Positions 33,176 to 58,542 of a stretch of DNA of 64,000 nt are shown piece after piece. Each line of letters begins with the position of its first letter. Within the stretch, counting starts at the first letter, position 1. Position numbers and translations under genes: made by a program. The notes under the pieces are model-generated. The model did no database searches and was not told the origin of the DNA. It was given only the letters and a program-made list of their open reading frames with translations. The stretch lies in sequence record PQ553088. One strand, written 5' to 3'. The DNA is from Escherichia phage OES_C-1.

Positions 33176-35272
33176 TTATCCTTGAACGAACTTGTAAGGC
33201 ATGTTTGTAATATCTATGCAAGACGCAATAATTCCAAGAGATGATTCTACTTTCTGTTTAACATTTGATGAAACAAATGATGCAAAGTCAACTCTGTCTT
33301 CTATTTCAATATCACCTGTCATTGCAACTACTTCACCAGTTTCCATTAGACGGTCACCGTCATAAATTACTGATTCGGTGAGTTCTTCCGTAGTCATAAC
33401 TTCAGCTTGAATGAGTTTTGTATTATTAGATGTTGTTCCGTCATTATTAGAAGCATCAGTTATTTTATTAACTTTGACCATCAATCCGCGTGGTAGAATT
33501 ACTTCAGCTTCTGTTGCTATTCCGAGACTTCCTGGATATACAACATTAACTTTATGAGCTCCATCAATTGCCCATCCTATTTGAACTTTAACGTATTCAG
33601 GATTTTCTTTATACGCTCTTATTTCGTTTGGATTAATAGTTATTCCTTCTTCATTTTTATCAACTGTTAATTCATTGCGAGCTTCTGGTTCTAAAAGACC
33701 GATACCAGCATGTGTAATTCCAAAACGTCCAAAAATGATAGGAGTTAAAGAAGTAGATACAAAATTTCTGAAATAGAACACTTTATTTTTAACTAGTGCT
33801 TCGTATATAGGAGCAGTCATACTTTGAGCACGATAAACTGTAATGCCTTCTGGTATACGGTCACCATTTTCAAAAGCTGAATCTAAGTTATTTATAGCAG
33901 ATTCAATTTCTTTTTCACTCATTACATCATATCGTTCTGGATTGTAGCGGCCTAAAAGAAGATTATTGATGTCAGTATATCCTGATCCACAATACTCTCT
34001 AATGCCGCGCTTTTGCGATGGAGTATATTTAGAACCATCACGTGCAATGGTAATATCAATCATTGGACCTGCACCAATTCCAGAAAAGCTATAAATCATT
34101 CGTTTGAGGAATTTAGTTTTTGCTGCGTTCCAGGAATTTTTAGTTATTTCTTCCCAGACTTCATCTGGCTGCCCTTTACGAGTTTTATTATGTTTATCAA
34201 GCCAATTATCTTTATATTCTTCAAAGAGTTGATTAATAGCTGCTGCGTATTTCTCTAAACATTTTATTGAAGTAGTTGGTTCATTTTTAATCGCATTAAG
34301 AATTACATCTTTAATTTTTTCAGAAACTTCATCAACCTCACTTTTTGAAAAGAATTTATAGTCATAGTGAAGTTCATTTGCAGTTCCTTCGGCAATAATT
34401 TTTGCTGCCTTAGTTTTAGAAGCTAATGAATTAATTCCAAGCTTCATTTCTTCTGCTTCGGGAATTAAAGGAGCGGTAGCAGGTTTATTAAAATTAGCTG
34501 CGGTAGATTCATACTTCTGGAATAATTCACTTTCAAATCTAGAAGATTCTAATGACTGACTTTGCGCAATTGCTCTACGGGAAATTTTAACTTTAACAAT
34601 AACAGCTTGGTCAGAACGTTTATCATTTTCTTGTGCAATAGATGCTGCAATTGCCTCATTTTTAGTTACTTGAGCTCCGGTATCTTTATTGATATAAACA
34701 TCGCCGACCTTCGATTCAACTTTAGTAAAGAGCTCGGTACTAATTTCCGGAACTCCTGGAATGTCTTCTAGTGATACATTTTTGCGATGTATAAGAATAT
34801 ATGCATACTTTTTATCATAATCCCAGAGTTCCTTAAGAAGGACGTATCTGCCACCTGAACGACTACGGATAAGTCTATCAGCAATAACTTGAATTTGTCG
34901 AGCTTGACCAGCAGTTTTAGACTTAAGAATACGAAGCATACAGGCATCAATTTTATACTGACGCATTGTTTGCATTGCAACAGTAAAAACTGAATTGATG
35001 TAATTAATTGGGCTTGGACCGAGACCTTTTAATTTAGCAATTGAACCTTTAGCAGTTAGTGTAAAAGGAACAATGTGCATCATTTTATCGCCCATCTTTA
35101 AATCACGGTTAGTATCACCTCCAGATGTATATGTACATAAACGAAAGCCTGGTTGCTCAATTGCGTCATCAACATGAACTGAAAAAATTTGCGGTATTTT
35201 CTTCTTTGGATTTAAGTTTGTAATCGGAAGAGTAGTATCTTCGTCAAATAATTCTGTAATAAGTTCCATCAT
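33176..35272 (-). CDS. alt: Alt ADP-ribosyltransferase (packaged internal head protein), 698 aa
   Basis: MELITELFD N-terminus; ART motifs YRAQ, FVSTSL, EAEVILPRG; minus-strand late promoter at 35293-35300. Confidence 0.85.
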   Translation of the reverse strand: MMELITELFDEDTTLPITNLNPKKKIPQIFSVHVDDAIEQPGFRLCTYTSGGDTNRDLKMGDKMMHIVPFTLTAKGSIAKLKGLGPSPINYINSVFTVAMQTMRQYKIDACMLRILKSKTAGQARQIQVIADRLIRSRSGGRYVLLKELWDYDKKYAYILIHRKNVSLEDIPGVPEISTELFTKVESKVGDVYINKDTGAQVTKNEAIAASIAQENDKRSDQAVIVKVKISRRAIAQSQSLESSRFESELFQKYESTAANFNKPATAPLIPEAEEMKLGINSLASKTKAAKIIAEGTANELHYDYKFFSKSEVDEVSEKIKDVILNAIKNEPTTSIKCLEKYAAAINQLFEEYKDNWLDKHNKTRKGQPDEVWEEITKNSWNAAKTKFLKRMIYSFSGIGAGPMIDITIARDGSKYTPSQKRGIREYCGSGYTDINNLLLGRYNPERYDVMSEKEIESAINNLDSAFENGDRIPEGITVYRAQSMTAPIYEALVKNKVFYFRNFVSTSLTPIIFGRFGITHAGIGLLEPEARNELTVDKNEEGITINPNEIRAYKENPEYVKVQIGWAIDGAHKVNVVYPGSLGIATEAEVILPRGLMVKVNKITDASNNDGTTSNNTKLIQAEVMTTEELTESVIYDGDRLMETGEVVAMTGDIEIEDRVDFASFVSSNVKQKVESSLGIIASCIDITNMPYKFVQG

Positions 35273-35321: not shown

Positions 35322-35510
35322 TTAATAATCTAGTGGTAAGAGAGTACGGTATATTTCAAACTTTGGACCTTTTTCGTAGGCATCAAATGTTTCTGTAAAT
35401 TTATTATAAGCATACGCATCTACAAATTCGAGAATGACTTGCGATACCGAAGTAGAAACATCTCCACCTTCTTTTTGAGCAACGACAATTGTTTCTAAGT
35501 AAGCTTTCAT
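35322..35510 (-). CDS. hypothetical protein (alt.1 position)
   Basis: 62-aa ORF overlapping gene 30 stop by 4 nt. Confidence 0.5.
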   Translation of the reverse strand: MKAYLETIVVAQKEGGDVSTSVSQVILEFVDAYAYNKFTETFDAYEKGPKFEIYRTLLPLDY

Positions 35511-36967
35511 AGACCAGTTACCTCATGAAAATCACCAAATACATCCTCGAATGTATTAGCTTTAGTTTTATCTTCACGTAAACGAATCGCAATTGGAAGA
35601 AATAATTTAACGTAATCAGTGCGGCCATCAGATTTTAACCAACCGTTGCATTCGCACTCTAAAATTTTTCCAATATAATAATTTTGGTTTTCCATAATGC
35701 GAGTACGGTCAAGTTCATGTGATTTTACACCAGCTTTATCTTTTAAGCCCGAACCAGCATTTACCTTAATTTTTCCACACTCTGATTCAAGAATAAATCC
35801 ACCTGCTTTAGTAGGGTCTTTACGGTGAGGATAAATTCCTACAATTTTTAAATCAACATCAATTACTTCTTTAAATTTATAGAGATTTTTTGAACGAGCA
35901 TTTTCCCACAATCCATCGGTATTTTTGAGAATAATACCTTCAAGACCTTGGTCAATATATTTTTTATAAATTACCTTAGCTTCATCTAGGTTATTTACTA
36001 CCTGGTTTTCAATTAAAATTACTTTATCATATCCTGATGTCATTTGTTCTAGTTTAGAAAAACGTACATCATATTTTAAACGAAACGTCGGAAGACCGTA
36101 TATTTCTACTAACGGAACATAATCCCAGACCTGAAACTTCATGCATTTGGCTTCTTTTTCTGAAATAGTTCCCTTTAAAGATTTATTGGCGATTCCATTA
36201 GAAGCAGTACGAGATTCAGCTACTTCGGCAAACTCTTTAGCTTTACTATTTTCAGGAGCATCAAAAAGAAAATCTAGGCCTTCTGGTTCCTTTTCAACTT
36301 GCTCATGGTATACCAATTCGCCATCAATTAACACACCTTCTGGATGAATCTGGCGGGCTTCAGCGGTCATTTTGATTAACTCTTCCTTAAGAAGATCTAA
36401 TCCTAGATATTCATTACCAGCTCGTGATAAAAGACGAACATCATCTAATTCATCTCCTCTGACTTCAGCAAAACACCGAGCTCCATCTGCTTTTAACTGC
36501 GCAAAAGCTGGAAATTTTATATTCTTACTAATGCCTTTTTCATCATAAGAACTTGCCAGCATTTGAGGTTGTTCAGGAATTAAACCTGGCCAAACTTTGT
36601 TTGCAATAGATACTGAAGCACCACATTCAAGGTCTCGCATCATAACTCGACGCAAAACTTCAACATCATCCTTTTTACCATCGGTGATATAACCAGTTAA
36701 TTCCTCAATTGCCGCGTTTCCAGTCAATTTCCGAGTAGCTAACGTGAATTCAATGAAGTCAAGCATATCGGTAATAGTCAGCATTCCAAAACTCTGGGTA
36801 GCAATACCAGGTTTAGGCCATTTCTTAATATAATACTGTAACCCGCGAGAATAAGTCAGACGATATACTCGTTTAAGCAATTCATTATCTTTATTCTTTT
36901 CAAGAATTGCTTGCTTCTGCTTAGTTGATCCAATAGATGCTATTTCATTCAGAATTTTAAGAATCAT
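35507..36967 (-). CDS. 30: ATP-dependent DNA ligase gp30
   Basis: 486 aa; adenylation motif KADGARCF. Confidence 0.95.
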   Translation of the reverse strand: MILKILNEIASIGSTKQKQAILEKNKDNELLKRVYRLTYSRGLQYYIKKWPKPGIATQSFGMLTITDMLDFIEFTLATRKLTGNAAIEELTGYITDGKKDDVEVLRRVMMRDLECGASVSIANKVWPGLIPEQPQMLASSYDEKGISKNIKFPAFAQLKADGARCFAEVRGDELDDVRLLSRAGNEYLGLDLLKEELIKMTAEARQIHPEGVLIDGELVYHEQVEKEPEGLDFLFDAPENSKAKEFAEVAESRTASNGIANKSLKGTISEKEAKCMKFQVWDYVPLVEIYGLPTFRLKYDVRFSKLEQMTSGYDKVILIENQVVNNLDEAKVIYKKYIDQGLEGIILKNTDGLWENARSKNLYKFKEVIDVDLKIVGIYPHRKDPTKAGGFILESECGKIKVNAGSGLKDKAGVKSHELDRTRIMENQNYYIGKILECECNGWLKSDGRTDYVKLFLPIAIRLREDKTKANTFEDVFGDFHEVTGL

Positions 36968-37233
36968 TGCTCATCCTTCAAGGTTTGGTTTACAGCTCTA
37001 TTATAAATCAATTCATCATTAAGCTCAGGCAAAGACTTATGATATGTAGTTCTAACTTTATTTCCTTGCATCCAGTGCTTGACGTAAATGAAACCTTGCT
37101 CTACACATTTTTTAAAAATTCGTTCGTCTTTTTGAGCTCGGAATTCTGGATTGCATCTAAAAAATTGATTTACGTGACCGTAATCACGTGTAGTATTACC
37201 TTCATTTTCATAAATAGTATGAACAACAAACAT
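36964..37233 (-). CDS. hypothetical protein (30.1 position)
   Basis: 89-aa ORF. Confidence 0.55.
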   Translation of the reverse strand: MFVVHTIYENEGNTTRDYGHVNQFFRCNPEFRAQKDERIFKKCVEQGFIYVKHWMQGNKVRTTYHKSLPELNDELIYNRAVNQTLKDEQ

Positions 37234-38072
37234 TAGAATGCTCCTTGAAAAATATTATCACCACTAGTAGGTCTATTATACAAATACTCTATGCCACCAG
37301 GTTTAATATAGTTCCATGTCTGAAACGGATGTGTCTGATATGGATGATATAGATGATTATAAGGATTTAATCCAGGCGTTCTCCAGGTAGTGTTCCAAGG
37401 AAAAGAATCGTTTTTAACCATCTTCTCAATTACATCTTTTATAGCTTTTTCACTATCAAAACTTTCTTTATTTTCCTTTGGTGAAAAAAGCTTATTTTCT
37501 ACATCATTCCATGTATAAACTCGCTGGGCAGTTTTTGGAATATTGTCACGCTCTCCTCGAGCCATCCAATAAACTGGAACATTTAATATTTCACTCGCAT
37601 GATCGCAGTGGTGAGCGAGATCGTCAATATAACAAATTACGTTATATTTCTCTTTTGCCTTTTTGAACAACTCTTCTTTTGAAGAATCATGACCGCACAT
37701 CATTACTTCTGAGAAGGCACCAGGAAAAAGAGCATTCAAATTAAATTGACGATTCAACAGAGCGTCAATAGAATCACCCAATGCTGTAACAGCTACAAAA
37801 TTATAATCTTCTTTTAATTTGTTAATTACACACAGAGCATCTTTATATGGAGACAAGTAACGAATAAAATCTGAACGATTATATTTTTCAATTAACTTGA
37901 CGCCAAGTTCTTCATCACAATTAAAGAGTTTACCTGGAGAAATAAATTTCTCATCTTGGATCATTTTTAAAATATGTTCTAACGGAAGATTATATTTCTG
38001 AGCAAAATAAGGAAGGCCTGATTGCCAGCTTAAACATACTCCATCAATATCAGTTAAAATAGTTGGCTTCAT
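37233..38072 (-). CDS. HAD-superfamily phosphatase-like protein (30.2 position)
   Basis: 279 aa; HAD motif I DIDGV at residues 8-12 and DD motif (YIDDLAHH). Confidence 0.6.
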   Translation of the reverse strand: MKPTILTDIDGVCLSWQSGLPYFAQKYNLPLEHILKMIQDEKFISPGKLFNCDEELGVKLIEKYNRSDFIRYLSPYKDALCVINKLKEDYNFVAVTALGDSIDALLNRQFNLNALFPGAFSEVMMCGHDSSKEELFKKAKEKYNVICYIDDLAHHCDHASEILNVPVYWMARGERDNIPKTAQRVYTWNDVENKLFSPKENKESFDSEKAIKDVIEKMVKNDSFPWNTTWRTPGLNPYNHLYHPYQTHPFQTWNYIKPGGIEYLYNRPTSGDNIFQGAF

Positions 38073-38533
38073 AGAGAGTCTCTTAATAGGTTTAACACAT
38101 CAATAAATTCAGCTTCGGTTAGTATTGTATCATCTTTTGTTAGACCACTAGCCATGCTGTGCTTCAAAACTTTTCCTTTCGAGGCTTGTAATGCATCACG
38201 AAAGCCCCTGTTTTGGATCGCTGCTTCAAAATATGCATTTGTGTATAATTCTTTCCACGCCGGGGAGTATCTTGAAAACGGAACTCCAAGCCAAAAGAGG
38301 GTCCCACGGTCCTGAGCTCTAGCATAAGACCTTCCAGCTTGTTGGGCGGCAAGCCCGGATAACCCAAATATACGTCTTTGCTGTTCAACATTTTTCACCT
38401 TACATCCTTGGAGGAATCCTTCGAGACCTCCAAATTGGATACCATCCATAGCGAAAGGCCATTGGGCGAAATTGCTTAATGCACATGATGGCCATCTAAA
38501 ATTGCTTCTTATTTCTAGCTCAGACATTTTCAA
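38069..38533 (-). CDS. NADAR/YbiA-like domain protein (30.3 position)
   Basis: 154 aa; ALSNFAQWPFAMDGIQFGGLEGFLQGCK resembles the YbiA/NADAR core SNFAAWP..DG....SEHYFQAQK. Confidence 0.6.
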   Translation of the reverse strand: MKMSELEIRSNFRWPSCALSNFAQWPFAMDGIQFGGLEGFLQGCKVKNVEQQRRIFGLSGLAAQQAGRSYARAQDRGTLFWLGVPFSRYSPAWKELYTNAYFEAAIQNRGFRDALQASKGKVLKHSMASGLTKDDTILTEAEFIDVLNLLRDSL

Positions 38534-38726
38534 TACTTATAATTTCAACATCAGCCCAATGACCATAGCAAGGAAGACGAAATTCAACTGGCCAGTTAGG
38601 GTCCTTTTCTAATATAATAGACTTAACTTGTGGTTCTTCATGTTCATCGGTATACGGACCTTTATACGTTACTTTATATGTGACCTTAATGTACTGAATT
38701 CCAAAAATCTTATTAATTATATTCAT
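38520..38726 (-). CDS. hypothetical protein
   Basis: 68-aa ORF in the 30.x cluster. Confidence 0.5.
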   Translation of the reverse strand: MNIINKIFGIQYIKVTYKVTYKGPYTDEHEEPQVKSIILEKDPNWPVEFRLPCYGHWADVEIISIENV

Positions 38727-38920
38727 ACTAATTCCTTTAATCCATAGATAGGAGATAATTCATCACCCATACGAAGGTCTTCATTTCCATCTACCCAGGA
38801 AACAATATAAGCCTCTTTTATTTGAATACCACTCCATTTAAATGGAGGTAGAACCTTAGAAATTAATCCAGGTATACCGACTCCCTTTAATTCAACAGTT
38901 TGACCCAAAAAGAATTTCAT
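38723..38920 (-). CDS. hypothetical protein
   Basis: 65-aa ORF in the 30.x cluster. Confidence 0.5.
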   Translation of the reverse strand: MKFFLGQTVELKGVGIPGLISKVLPPFKWSGIQIKEAYIVSWVDGNEDLRMGDELSPIYGLKELV

Positions 38921-39207: not shown

Positions 39208-39248
39208 AGTATTTTCCTCAGTAAGGGGCCGAAGCCCCTTATTTTATT

Positions 39249-57554: not shown

Positions 57555-58207
57555 TAATACTTGCAAGATTTCACAGTTTCAATGAAAACACTTTTGGCTT
57601 TCTGCGAATCAATATTTAAAATTTTTCTATAAGCCTTTAACTTTATAGAATAATTATTCCAGACTAAATTATCAGTCTGTTCATCATGTTTATCAATTAT
57701 ATTTAAAAACGAATCAAGCAAGATAAACGTCTCAAACGAAATTATATTCGATTGAAGTAGTTTAAAAATATAACTTGATTGAACTTTTGGATTATACTCA
57801 AAGATTTCTTTAAAAGCAGAAACTTCAACTTTTTTACTAAAATAATAAATGTTGCGAATATCTTCTTCAAACTTAAATTTAATTTGCTTTAAGCGTCCGA
57901 TATATTCACGATAAAACACAAGTGCATCAGCATCAGAGATGTCACCAATCCAAGCATCCTGGTTAGCAACCAGATTGCTTATAAAGATTAAAGCAAGTTC
58001 CTTTAATTTATATTTTTCTGATAACTTCTGGAAAAAATACTTATCCCTTCGCTTTTGATAAGCGGCATCAGACACCCGCATGCACCAATTATACTTAATT
58101 ACATCATACTTTCCATTCATATGTTGTTTTATCATTAAGTATAATTTATAAACTGATTTACCATCAATGTATCTTTCACCACCAGCAGGCATGCGGAGTT
58201 TAATCAT
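57554..58207 (-). CDS. 59: helicase loader gp59
   Basis: 217 aa. Confidence 0.9.
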   Translation of the reverse strand: MIKLRMPAGGERYIDGKSVYKLYLMIKQHMNGKYDVIKYNWCMRVSDAAYQKRRDKYFFQKLSEKYKLKELALIFISNLVANQDAWIGDISDADALVFYREYIGRLKQIKFKFEEDIRNIYYFSKKVEVSAFKEIFEYNPKVQSSYIFKLLQSNIISFETFILLDSFLNIIDKHDEQTDNLVWNNYSIKLKAYRKILNIDSQKAKSVFIETVKSCKY

Positions 58208-58542
58208 AGTAGAAAATCTAATGTATTAGTTTTTTCACAACGAACTACAGAAGGACGTAAAAGATTTTCGTCAATAGCTTCTGACTGAATTTTTTCAATT
58301 ATACCCGAAGGAATAAATTTAGCAAATTGAGTTTCAGGAATAGAATTTTCTTCCAAGAATGCTGTTGTAGCTTCAAGATAACTCATTCCAAACTCTTCTA
58401 CCATTTTTTCAATAATAAATCCATTTTCTTGACGGTCAAGAAGCTTTGCAATTTCATCCTTTTCTTTCTTAATTGAAAGTTCTTTTTCTGAAAGACCGGT
58501 CTCATCGACCGGACGAATATCATTTAGAGAAAACTGTGTCAT
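58204..58542 (-). CDS. 33: late transcription co-activator gp33
   Basis: 112 aa from ATG 58542 (MTQFSLNDIR...). Confidence 0.85.
   Translation of the reverse strand: MTQFSLNDIRPVDETGLSEKELSIKKEKDEIAKLLDRQENGFIIEKMVEEFGMSYLEATTAFLEENSIPETQFAKFIPSGIIEKIQSEAIDENLLRPSVVRCEKTNTLDFLL

What the first reader, a model, noticed from the sequence alone, without database searches (positions are those of the whole stretch)
37233..38072. HAD-superfamily phosphatase-like ORF directly upstream of the NADAR-like gene
The 279-aa ORF begins MKPTILTDIDGVCLSW (HAD motif I, DxDG[T/V] near the N-terminus) and has a downstream DD motif (VICYIDDLAHH), resembling 5'(3')-deoxyribonucleotidase-type HAD enzymes. It overlaps the NADAR-like gene by 4 nt, so the two are probably co-translated. 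Together they could act on nucleotide or ADP-ribose derived substrates.
Basis: partly seen in the sequence, partly recalled or inferred. Interest (0 to 1): 0.45.

Follow-up and report, generated by a model that had tools for sequence, protein, structure and literature searches.

The report
T4 gene 30.2: nucleotidase-like HAD phosphatase
This ORF is the ortholog of phage T4 gene 30.2, a conserved, non-essential and uncharacterised gene that almost certainly encodes a small HAD-type phosphatase most like 5'(3')-deoxyribonucleotidases, and published T4 data do not support it working together with the neighbouring NADAR gene.

Summary
The window is a T4-like (Tequatrovirus) phage genome. The ORF at 37233-38072 is real. 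It lies on the minus strand and is the ortholog of T4 gene 30.2 (97% identical), which RefSeq calls a hypothetical protein.

The HAD reading holds:
- Motifs I-IV (D8xD10xV12, T96, K132, D150-D151) are essentially invariant across 137 divergent relatives.
- The AlphaFold model has pLDDT above 90 for residues 1-200.
- Profile comparisons place it next to NT5C-type 5'(3')-deoxyribonucleotidases over its full length. They do not place it next to the phage's own capless Pnkp phosphatase.
- The protein itself matches no Pfam or NCBIfam model.

- The gene is downstream of the NADAR gene (30.3/AdfN), not upstream.
- The 4-nt ATGA overlap is real but unremarkable, because every junction from 30.6 to alt.1 overlaps.
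- NADAR lies within 5 kb in only 37 of 80 related loci. DNA ligase follows in 73 of 80.
- In published T4 transposon data, 30.2 insertions are neutral on K-12, in M9 and under DarTG1, where 30.3 insertions are lost.

The substrate is unknown; a (deoxy)nucleoside monophosphate is the best guess. The disordered C-terminal tail carries an unexplained conserved short motif. This is an ordinary finding of modest interest.

The parts
37233..38072 (-). Complete ORF of 279 aa plus stop; ortholog of T4 gene 30.2
   Evidence: ORF list and sequence. It is 97% identical to T4 30.2 by tblastn, and the T4 annotation is NP_049815 'hypothetical protein'. PHROG 420 'unknown function', E = 5.7e-93.
37485..38072 (-). 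HAD phosphatase domain, residues 1-196 (Rossmann-like core plus helical cap)
38037..38051 (-). HAD motif I, D8-I-D10-G-V12 (nucleophile Asp and general acid/base Asp)
   Evidence: D8 and D10 are present in 34/34 close and 136/137 divergent homologs.
37848..38036 (-). C1-type helical cap inserted after motif I (about residues 13-75); holds the conserved W16, S18 and Y64-N-x-S67 residues
   Evidence: Helices 16-26, 32-40, 46-49, 54-65 and 68-72 in the model. Position 16 is aromatic in 136/137 and position 64 aromatic or His in 137/137 homologs. W16 and Y64 align with F20 and Y67 of mouse cdN, PDB 2jao.
37785..37787 (-). HAD motif II, T96 at the end of strand 91-96
   Evidence: T or S in 137/137 homologs.
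37677..37679 (-). HAD motif III, K132
   Evidence: Invariant in 137/137 homologs.
37620..37625 (-). HAD motif IV, D150-D151 (Mg2+ ligands) at the end of strand 145-150
   Evidence: The plus strand reads atcgtc, which is GAC GAT on the minus strand. D or E at position 150 in 137/137 and D at 151 in 135/137 homologs.
37233..37484 (-). Variable C-terminal tail, residues 197-279, aromatic- and proline-rich and mostly predicted disordered, plus the stop codon
   Evidence: pLDDT 42-68 apart from one helix at 207-220. The tail is absent from the roughly 200-aa homologs of Acinetobacter, Aeromonas and Vibrio phages.
37281..37292 (-). Conserved short motif I261-E-Y-L264 in the tail, 19 residues from the C-terminus; partner unknown
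   Evidence: [ILVT]E[YW][LWY] lies 15-19 residues from the C-terminus in 19 of 59 long-tailed homologs. Composition shuffles give a mean of 1.0 and a maximum of 6.
38069..38072 (-). ATGA overlap of the 30.3 stop codon and the 30.2 start codon
   Evidence: Sequence.
38069..38533 (-). Upstream neighbour: gene 30.3 / AdfN, a NADAR DNA ADP-ribosylglycohydrolase (context, not shown to be a functional partner)
   Evidence: Pfam Phage_30_3, E = 5.1e-69. Function taken from PMC11257639.
36964..37233 (-). Downstream neighbour: gene 30.1 (DUF3045); its start overlaps the 30.2 stop by 1 nt (TAATG)
   Evidence: Pfam DUF3045, E = 5.6e-63; sequence.
35507..36967 (-). Gene 30, ATP-dependent DNA ligase; the most constant neighbour of 30.2 across the family Straboviridae
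   Evidence: ORF. Ligase lies downstream on the same strand in 73 of 80 related loci, within 700 nt in 68 of them.

Best explanation
The ORF encodes the gp30.2 protein of a T4-like phage. It is a soluble, Mg2+-dependent phosphomonoesterase of the haloacid-dehalogenase (HAD) superfamily.

Mechanism, inferred from how the family is known to work:
- D8 attacks the substrate phosphate to form an aspartyl-phosphate intermediate.
- D10 acts as the general acid/base.
- T96 and K132 (and probably R108) hold the phosphate.
- D150 and D151 hold Mg2+.
- A roughly 60-residue helical C1 cap closes over the active site, which favours a small-molecule substrate.

The whole domain, cap included, is homologous to NT5C-type 5'(3')-deoxyribonucleotidases. 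Two aromatic cap residues, W16 and Y64, align with aromatic residues of mammalian cdN. The most likely substrate is therefore a (deoxy)nucleoside monophosphate, which would make gp30.2 an accessory enzyme that trims or cleans the nucleotide pool during infection.

It is dispensable in laboratory hosts and is not needed for the NADAR (AdfN) counter-defence.

Shown here: fold, motifs, family relationship, synteny, and (from the literature) dispensability.
Inferred: catalysis, Mg2+ dependence, nucleotide substrate, and physiological role.
For: Identity of the gene:
- The region is 100% identical to Escherichia phage OES_C-2 and 97-98% identical to many Tequatrovirus genomes.
- It corresponds to T4 gene 30.2.

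Motifs:
- D8, D10, T/S96, K132, D/E150 and D151 are conserved in 135-137 of 137 divergent relatives.
- R108 is invariant.

Fold:
- AlphaFold2 mean pLDDT is 84, and above 90 over residues 1-200. Strands and helices follow the canonical HAD order.
- In Foldseek, the deoxyribonucleotidases 3bwv, 4yih, 2i7d and 1q92 have the best target-normalised TM (0.64-0.71) and the lowest rmsd.
- Among viral structure models, the matches after the orthologs are phage proteins named 5' nucleotidase.

Sequence profiles:
- With the profile of close homologs, the best PDB hit is mouse cdN (2jao), E = 0.044.
- With the broader profile, the best PDB hit is 3bwv, E = 5.6e-7 over its full length.
- 46 of 137 divergent relatives match Pfam NT5C (best E = 4e-10); 23 match the generic HAD models.
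- hhalign against a Staphylococcus NT5C profile gives 98.1% (E = 8e-14) and 94.4%.
- Control: hhalign against this phage's own PseT phosphatase domain gives only 29.7% over 33 columns.

Dispensability:
- T4 30.2 is non-essential; 72 of 72 sites carry insertions.
- Insertions are neutral in LB versus M9 and under DarTG1.
Against: - The window protein itself matches no Pfam, NCBIfam or PDB sequence at E <= 1. The NT5C link depends on profiles and on intermediate sequences.
- No experiment on gp30.2 was found: the term 'gp30.2' returns no papers.
- No phenotype is known in any condition read.
- As far as I know, six decades of work on T4 dNTP metabolism have not reported a 5'-nucleotidase activity (my own knowledge, not checked here).
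- The role of the aromatic pair in cdN is recalled from memory, not verified in a paper held here.
Confidence: 0.6

Rival explanations
1. It is a capped HAD phosphatase, as above, but its substrate is a small phosphomonoester that is not a nucleotide, for example a sugar phosphate, phosphoglycolate or a cofactor phosphate.
Against: - The profile relationship to NT5C runs over the full length, cap included.
- NT5C is by far the most frequent Pfam match among relatives, 46 of 137.
- Aromatic residues are conserved at the two cap positions that align with aromatics of cdN.
Confidence: 0.17
2. One reading: gp30.2 works with the NADAR enzyme (30.3/AdfN) encoded just before it, and dephosphorylates a product derived from ADP-ribose released from DNA.
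For: - The two genes abut with an ATGA overlap in this window.
- They abut (gap <= 5 nt) in 13 of 80 related loci and lie within 200 nt in 22.
- Their counts across phage records are similar, 1455 and 1510, with a similar spread over host genera.
Against: - ADP-ribose is a diester and has no free phosphomonoester, so an HAD phosphatase would need another enzyme to act first (inference).
- NADAR is absent within 5 kb of 30.2 in 43 of 80 loci.
- In Salmonella phage STML-198 the two genes are about 100 kb apart in record coordinates.
- AdfN alone is reported to be necessary and sufficient against DarTG1.
- T4 30.2 insertions are neutral under DarTG1 (log2FC -0.12), against -7.25 for 30.3.
- Overlapping start and stop codons are the rule throughout this gene block.
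Confidence: 0.07
3. It is a polynucleotide 3'-phosphatase that cleans nick or gap ends for the DNA ligase encoded just downstream, acting like the phosphatase domain of Pnkp.
For: - DNA ligase follows 30.2 on the same strand in 73 of 80 loci, from T4 to Vibrio and Aeromonas phages.
- There is a weak PHROG match to polynucleotide kinase, E = 0.002.
- One metagenomic relative (P0150) is fused to a domain that PHROGs labels 'DNA polymerase', and it is encoded near a PolA gene.
Against: - The protein has a closed-type C1 helical cap. Polynucleotide-directed HAD phosphatases such as Pnkp are capless (established knowledge of the superfamily).
- hhalign to this phage's own Pnkp phosphatase domain is weak, 29.7% over 33 columns.
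- The order cd-31-rIII-...-30.2-30-alt is conserved as a whole block, so adjacency to ligase may simply be inherited gene order.
- T4 already has a 3'-phosphatase in PseT.
Confidence: 0.08
4. It is a catalytically dead HAD-fold protein that serves only as a binding or regulatory module.
For: No enzymatic activity has been reported, and no phenotype is known.
Against: All four catalytic motifs are conserved in 135-137 of 137 divergent relatives. That level of conservation is not expected of a pseudoenzyme.
Confidence: 0.03

Closest known systems
NT5C family (Pfam PF06941): 5'(3')-deoxyribonucleotidases. Examples: human/mouse cdN and mdN (PDB 2jao, 2i7d, 4yih, 1q92) and the bacterial homolog 3bwv from Staphylococcus epidermidis
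   Same: - HAD core with a helical C1 cap of similar size.
- DxDx[VT] motif I, T/S motif II, K motif III, DD motif IV.
- A basic residue about 12 positions after motif II (R108 here, Lys in 3bwv).
- Aromatic residues at the aligned cap positions (W16 with F20, Y64 with Y67 of mouse cdN).
- Full-length profile-profile match of 94-98%.
- Best target-normalised TM scores.
   Different: - Sequence identity is only about 14-21%.
- The window protein does not reach the Pfam NT5C threshold.
- It forms its own large, apparently phage-borne family, PHROG 420.
- It has strongly conserved cap residues of its own (S18, N65, S67, N111).
- In enterobacterial phages it carries an extra disordered tail of about 80 residues.
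- Its activity and substrate are untested.
Phage T4 gene 30.2 product (NP_049815)
   Same: It is the same gene: 97% identity, the same length class (278/279 aa) and the same position between 30.3 and 30.1.
   Different: Nothing of substance. T4 30.2 is itself uncharacterised and is called 'hypothetical protein' in RefSeq. A few GenBank records of related phages label orthologs automatically as '5'-3' deoxyribonucleotidase', '5' nucleotidase' or 'HAD-superfamily hydrolase'.
T4 polynucleotide kinase/3'-phosphatase (PseT/Pnkp), C-terminal HAD phosphatase domain
   Different: Pnkp's phosphatase domain has no cap and acts on polynucleotide 3' ends. gp30.2 has a C1 cap. Profile similarity is confined to the motif IV region (29.7%).
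Phage deoxynucleotide monophosphatases with known roles: T5 Dmp 5'-deoxynucleotidase and the PBS2 dTMP phosphatase (recalled from memory)
   Same: The proposed activity is the same: a phage enzyme that dephosphorylates dNMPs to reshape the nucleotide pool.
   Different: As I recall, T5 Dmp has a different (HD-domain) fold, so any likeness would be in function, not ancestry. No comparable physiological role is known for T4.

Membership tests
HAD (haloacid dehalogenase) superfamily | Motif I DxDx[T/V] at the end of the first strand (nucleophile Asp and Asp+2) | tested here: met
   D8-I-D10-G-V12 follows strand 4-7. D8 and D10 are present in 136/137 relatives.
HAD (haloacid dehalogenase) superfamily | Motif II Ser/Thr, motif III Lys/Arg, motif IV acidic pair (DD or similar), in that order on successive strands | tested here: met
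   T96 ends strand 91-96, K132 precedes helix 133-142, and D150-D151 end strand 145-150. Conserved in 135-137 of 137 relatives.
HAD (haloacid dehalogenase) superfamily | Rossmann-like alpha/beta core fold typical of HAD enzymes | tested here: met
HAD (haloacid dehalogenase) superfamily | Mg2+-dependent catalysis through an aspartyl-phosphate intermediate | not testable with these tools
   Requires enzyme assays with D8N/D10N mutants.
NT5C / 5'(3')-deoxyribonucleotidase family (Pfam PF06941) | Match to the curated family model above its gathering score | tested here: not met
   The window protein has no Pfam hit at E <= 1. 46 of 137 more distant relatives match NT5C at E <= 0.01 (best 4e-10), and three checked individually score 26.6-29.4 bits against a cutoff of 24.8.
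NT5C / 5'(3')-deoxyribonucleotidase family (Pfam PF06941) | Full-length homology to family members, including the cap domain | tested here: met
   hhalign against a Staphylococcus NT5C profile: 98.1% (E = 8e-14, 173 columns) and 94.4% (177 columns). hmmsearch against 3bwv: E = 5.6e-7 over residues 3-177. Control against the Pnkp phosphatase: 29.7%.
NT5C / 5'(3')-deoxyribonucleotidase family (Pfam PF06941) | Aromatic residues in the cap that stack on the nucleobase | tested here: inconclusive
   W16 and Y64 align with F20 and Y67 of mouse cdN and stay aromatic in 136-137 of 137 relatives. That these cdN residues stack on the base is recalled from memory and was not verified in a paper held here. 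The general importance of pi-stacking in HAD 5'-nucleotidases is stated in PMC3946280.
NT5C / 5'(3')-deoxyribonucleotidase family (Pfam PF06941) | Phosphatase activity on 5'- and 3'-deoxyribonucleoside monophosphates | not testable with these tools
   No biochemical data for gp30.2 were found.
Pnkp-type polynucleotide 3'-phosphatase (capless HAD) | No cap domain, leaving the active site open to polynucleotide ends | tested here: not met
   The model has a five-helix insert between motif I and motif II (residues 16-72, pLDDT above 90).
Two-gene functional module with NADAR (AdfN) | Conserved adjacency of the two genes beyond general synteny | tested here: not met
   NADAR lies within 5 kb upstream in 37 of 80 loci and abuts in 13. 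Ligase lies downstream in 73 of 80.
Two-gene functional module with NADAR (AdfN) | Shared loss-of-function phenotype | tested here: not met
   From published T4 HIDEN-SEQ data under DarTG1: 30.2 log2FC -0.12 (p = 0.61); 30.3 log2FC -7.25.

The most novel reading that the evidence does not exclude
gp30.2 may be a tethered enzyme rather than a free-floating pool enzyme. Its disordered tail carries a conserved short motif, [ILV]-E-[YW]-[LWY], about 17 residues from the C-terminus. That pattern (hydrophobic, acidic, aromatic, then Leu/aromatic) resembles the LDFL(L/F/Y) epitope through which T4 gp33, gp55 and gp43 dock on the gp45 sliding clamp. The motif could recruit the phosphatase to the replisome or to another phage or host partner. 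There it might act locally next to the co-inherited DNA ligase, for example by removing AMP or a blocking phosphate.
Probability: 0.06. Interest if true: 0.6.

Novelty: new member of a known kind. Interest (0 to 1): 0.28.

Why it matters
T4 is the reference phage for nucleotide metabolism, yet gene 30.2 still has no assigned function. It is conserved in more than 1400 sequenced relatives. A well-supported prediction of a capped, NT5C-like HAD phosphatase gives a direct and inexpensive experiment: a substrate screen plus nucleotide-pool measurements in a deletion mutant. The analysis also removes a tempting but unsupported link to the anti-DarTG NADAR gene next door. The practical gain is better annotation of a very common phage gene. 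It is not a new principle.

Tried and rejected
Searches that returned nothing useful:
- Direct Pfam, NCBIfam and PDB sequence searches with the protein itself gave nothing. The family only became visible with profiles.
- The search for related loci with the broad alignment A2 failed because it has no conserved stretch.
- The afdb50 fold library was not available.
- Literature searches for 'gp30.2' and for 30.1/30.2/30.3 together gave no functional data.
- The T4 genome review (PMC150520) is not held.
- Searches for a paper stating the base-stacking residues of cdN/mdN failed, so that point is marked as memory.

Context checks that were uninformative:
- The most distant loci (L078 and similar, L005) have no informative neighbours.
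- The N-terminal domain of the fusion protein P0150 has no PDB sequence match, and its contig context (near PolA) is not decisive.
- Cluster look-ups of distant relatives returned almost no names.

Ideas considered and rejected:
- The 4-nt overlap as evidence of a functional pair, because all junctions in the block overlap.
- Adjacency to ligase as strong evidence of function, because the whole cd-31-rIII-30.2-30-alt order is conserved.
- The small plus-strand ORFs inside the gene (37390-37518 and 37478-37666) as real genes.

Full report
WHAT IS THERE

The window comes from a T4-like phage. The stretch 36900-38800 is 100% identical to Escherichia phage OES_C-2 and 97-98% identical to hundreds of Tequatrovirus genomes. 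The finding's coordinates hold a real 279-aa ORF on the minus strand. It begins MKPTILTDIDGVCLSW and contains VICYIDDLAHH.

Mapping onto the T4 reference shows that it is the ortholog of gene 30.2 (97% identity), which RefSeq annotates as 'hypothetical protein'. On the minus strand the local gene order is 30.4, 30.3, 30.2, 30.1, 30 (DNA ligase), alt.1, alt. Gene 30.3 is the NADAR gene (Pfam Phage_30_3, E = 5e-69), and 30.1 is DUF3045.

The ORF therefore lies downstream of the NADAR gene in transcription order, not upstream. The ATGA overlap at 38069-38072 is real. However, every junction from 30.6 to alt.1 also overlaps by 1 or 4 nt or more. The overlap is ordinary T4 gene packing and says nothing specific about this pair.

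IS IT AN HAD ENZYME?

The protein alone matches no Pfam, NCBIfam or PDB sequence. It matches only PHROG 420 'unknown function', plus a weak hit to polynucleotide kinase. It has many relatives, though:
- 100 clusters in the word-indexed search, nearly all from T4-like phages.
- 1455 phage records by tblastn.
- 1382 representative clusters with a profile of 34 homologs.

In an alignment of 137 divergent relatives (20-46% identical to the query), the four HAD motifs are essentially invariant:

| Position | Conservation |
|---|---|
| D8, D10 | 136/137 (the exception is a gap) |
| T/S96 | 137/137 |
| K132 | 137/137 |
| D/E150 | 137/137 |
| D151 | 135/137 |
| R108 | 137/137 |

WHICH KIND OF HAD ENZYME?

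Sequence profiles are more specific:
- With the close-homolog profile, the best PDB hit is mouse cytosolic 5'(3')-deoxyribonucleotidase (E = 0.044).
- With the broad profile, the best PDB hit is the S. epidermidis NT5C-type protein 3bwv over its full length (E = 5.6e-7).
- 46 of 137 relatives match Pfam NT5C, against 23 for the generic HAD models.
- Profile-profile comparison with a Staphylococcus NT5C alignment gives 98.1% (E = 8e-14) and 94.4%, in both cases end to end.
- As a control, the same profile against this phage's own capless Pnkp phosphatase domain gives 29.7% over 33 columns.

In the alignment to mouse cdN, W16 and Y64 pair with F20 and Y67. Both positions remain aromatic (one His at position 64) throughout the family. 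From memory, these are the residues that stack on the base in cdN. I could not confirm that in a paper held here.

My conclusion is that this is a divergent, mostly phage-borne sister family of NT5C. Because the protein does not reach the curated Pfam threshold, I do not file it as an NT5C member in the strict sense.

RELATION TO THE NADAR GENE

The neighbour 30.3 is AdfN, a DNA ADP-ribosylglycohydrolase. It is reported to be necessary and sufficient for T4-group phages to resist DarTG1 (PMC11257639; also PMC11125620).

I compared 80 related loci from phage records and viral contigs:
- A NADAR gene lies within 5 kb upstream of the 30.2 homolog in 37 loci and abuts it in 13.
- In the other 43 loci it is not nearby. 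Even so, the two genes occur in similar numbers of genomes (1455 and 1510).
- In Salmonella phage STML-198 they are about 100 kb apart in record coordinates.
- DNA ligase, by contrast, follows on the same strand in 73 of 80 loci. The whole order cd-31-rIII-...-30.2-30-alt is conserved, so this looks like inherited gene order rather than a specific coupling.

Published T4 transposon-insertion data (HIDEN-SEQ preprint, Extended Data Table 6) bear directly on the question:
- 30.2 is non-essential; 72 of 72 sites carry insertions.
- Under DarTG1, 30.2 has log2FC -0.12 (p = 0.61), while 30.3 has -7.25.
- In LB versus M9, 30.2 has log2FC -0.10.

The proposed joint action with NADAR is thus unsupported genetically. 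It is also awkward chemically, because ADP-ribose has no free phosphomonoester.

MOST LIKELY MECHANISM AND ROLE

Shown here: an intact HAD catalytic apparatus, a closed-type cap, and full-length kinship to 5'(3')-deoxyribonucleotidases.

Inferred:
- Hydrolysis is Mg2+-dependent and proceeds through an aspartyl-phosphate on D8.
- The substrate is a small phosphomonoester, most probably a (deoxy)nucleoside monophosphate.
- The protein is an accessory enzyme that trims or cleans the nucleotide pool, or forms a substrate cycle with the phage thymidine kinase.

I put about 0.95 on 'HAD phosphatase' and about 0.6 on the full statement including a nucleotide substrate.

Rivals:
- Another small phosphoester as substrate (0.17).
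- A nick-end 3'-phosphatase helping ligase (0.08). Ligase adjacency and one fusion to a polymerase-like domain speak for it. The cap and the weak similarity to Pnkp speak against it.
- A partner of NADAR (0.07).
- A dead enzyme (0.03).

AN UNEXPLAINED EXTRA

Residues 197-279 form a mostly disordered tail rich in aromatic residues and proline. It is missing from the roughly 200-aa homologs of Acinetobacter, Aeromonas and Vibrio phages and is otherwise highly variable.

Even so, a short motif [ILVT]E[YW][LWY] (IEYL here, residues 261-264) sits 15-19 residues from the C-terminus in 19 of 59 long-tailed homologs. Composition-preserving shuffles give about 1. The sequences are related, so this is not a probability.

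Other classes of tail carry (D/E)Y.LLN or L(R/K)A(Y/F)Y near the end. The motif pattern resembles the C-terminal LDFLL of the gp33 ortholog in this same window (58204-58542). From memory, that epitope is the sliding-clamp docking site. This is a lead only, and I could not test it.

VERDICT

This is a real, conserved and correctly spotted HAD-type phosphatase gene, T4 30.2. It is best described as an NT5C-like putative nucleotidase with unknown substrate and no known phenotype. The suggested partnership with the NADAR gene is not supported. Some GenBank records already label orthologs as 5' nucleotidase or HAD hydrolase, so this is a new member of a known kind and of modest interest.

Noticed in passing
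window 37233-37484 (minus strand); motif at 37281-37292: The disordered C-terminal tail of gp30.2 carries a conserved short motif, [ILVT]E[YW][LWY], 15-19 residues from the end in 19 of 59 long-tailed homologs (about 1 expected from shuffles). Other tail classes carry (D/E)Y.LLN or L(R/K)A(Y/F)Y. The partner is unknown. The motif resembles the LDFLL C-terminus of gp33.
   Followed up: partly
window 58204-58542 (minus strand): The gp33 ortholog (112 aa) ends in ...TNTLDFLL. Among ORFs of at least 80 aa in the window, only four have a [LIVMT][DE][FYW][LWYFM] pattern in their last 25 residues, and gp30.2 is one of them.
   Followed up: partly
window 38164-38391 (minus strand), inside gene 30.3: A 75-aa ORF in another frame inside the NADAR gene corresponds to T4 30.3', which the T4 record annotates as internal translation in a different reading frame.
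   Followed up: no
window 38520-38533: The mechanical ORF for 30.3 starts at a TTG and gives 154 aa (MKMSELE...). T4 annotates 152 aa, so the real start is probably the ATG two codons later. Either way it overlaps the end of 30.4.
   Followed up: no
window 33176-35272 (minus strand): The Alt ADP-ribosyltransferase here (698 aa) is only about 70% identical to T4 Alt, while the flanking genes are 97-100% identical. It matches other T4-like phages at 98-99%. This looks like a mosaic or fast-evolving gene.
   Followed up: no
P0150 (591 aa), locus L082 6001-7776: A metagenomic relative fuses a gp30.2-like HAD domain (residues 386-586) to an N-terminal domain matching PHROG 24943, labelled 'DNA polymerase' and containing a GDLDIII nucleotidyltransferase-like motif. 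It is encoded a few kb from a PolA gene on an Antarctic marine contig.
   Followed up: partly
T4 gene 30.4 (window 38520-38726) in the HIDEN-SEQ DarTG1 data: Insertions in 30.4, just upstream of adfN/30.3, are also depleted under DarTG1 (log2FC -1.79, adjusted p = 0.014). This is most simply a polar effect on 30.3. Insertions in 30.2, downstream, are neutral.
   Followed up: no
window 39220-39243: A GC-rich hairpin (AGTAAGGGGCCGAAGCCCCTTATT) with T-runs lies between genes 30.7 and 30.6. A near-consensus sigma-70-like promoter sits at 39713-39684 on the minus strand, upstream of 30.7.
   Followed up: no
Salmonella phage STML-198 (JX181825 / NC_027344) and loci L020-L040: In many Klebsiella-, Salmonella- and Enterobacter-type T4-like phages the NADAR gene is not near 30.2. 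In STML-198 the two are about 100 kb apart in record coordinates. The NADAR gene has therefore moved relative to the conserved 30.2-ligase block.
   Followed up: partly
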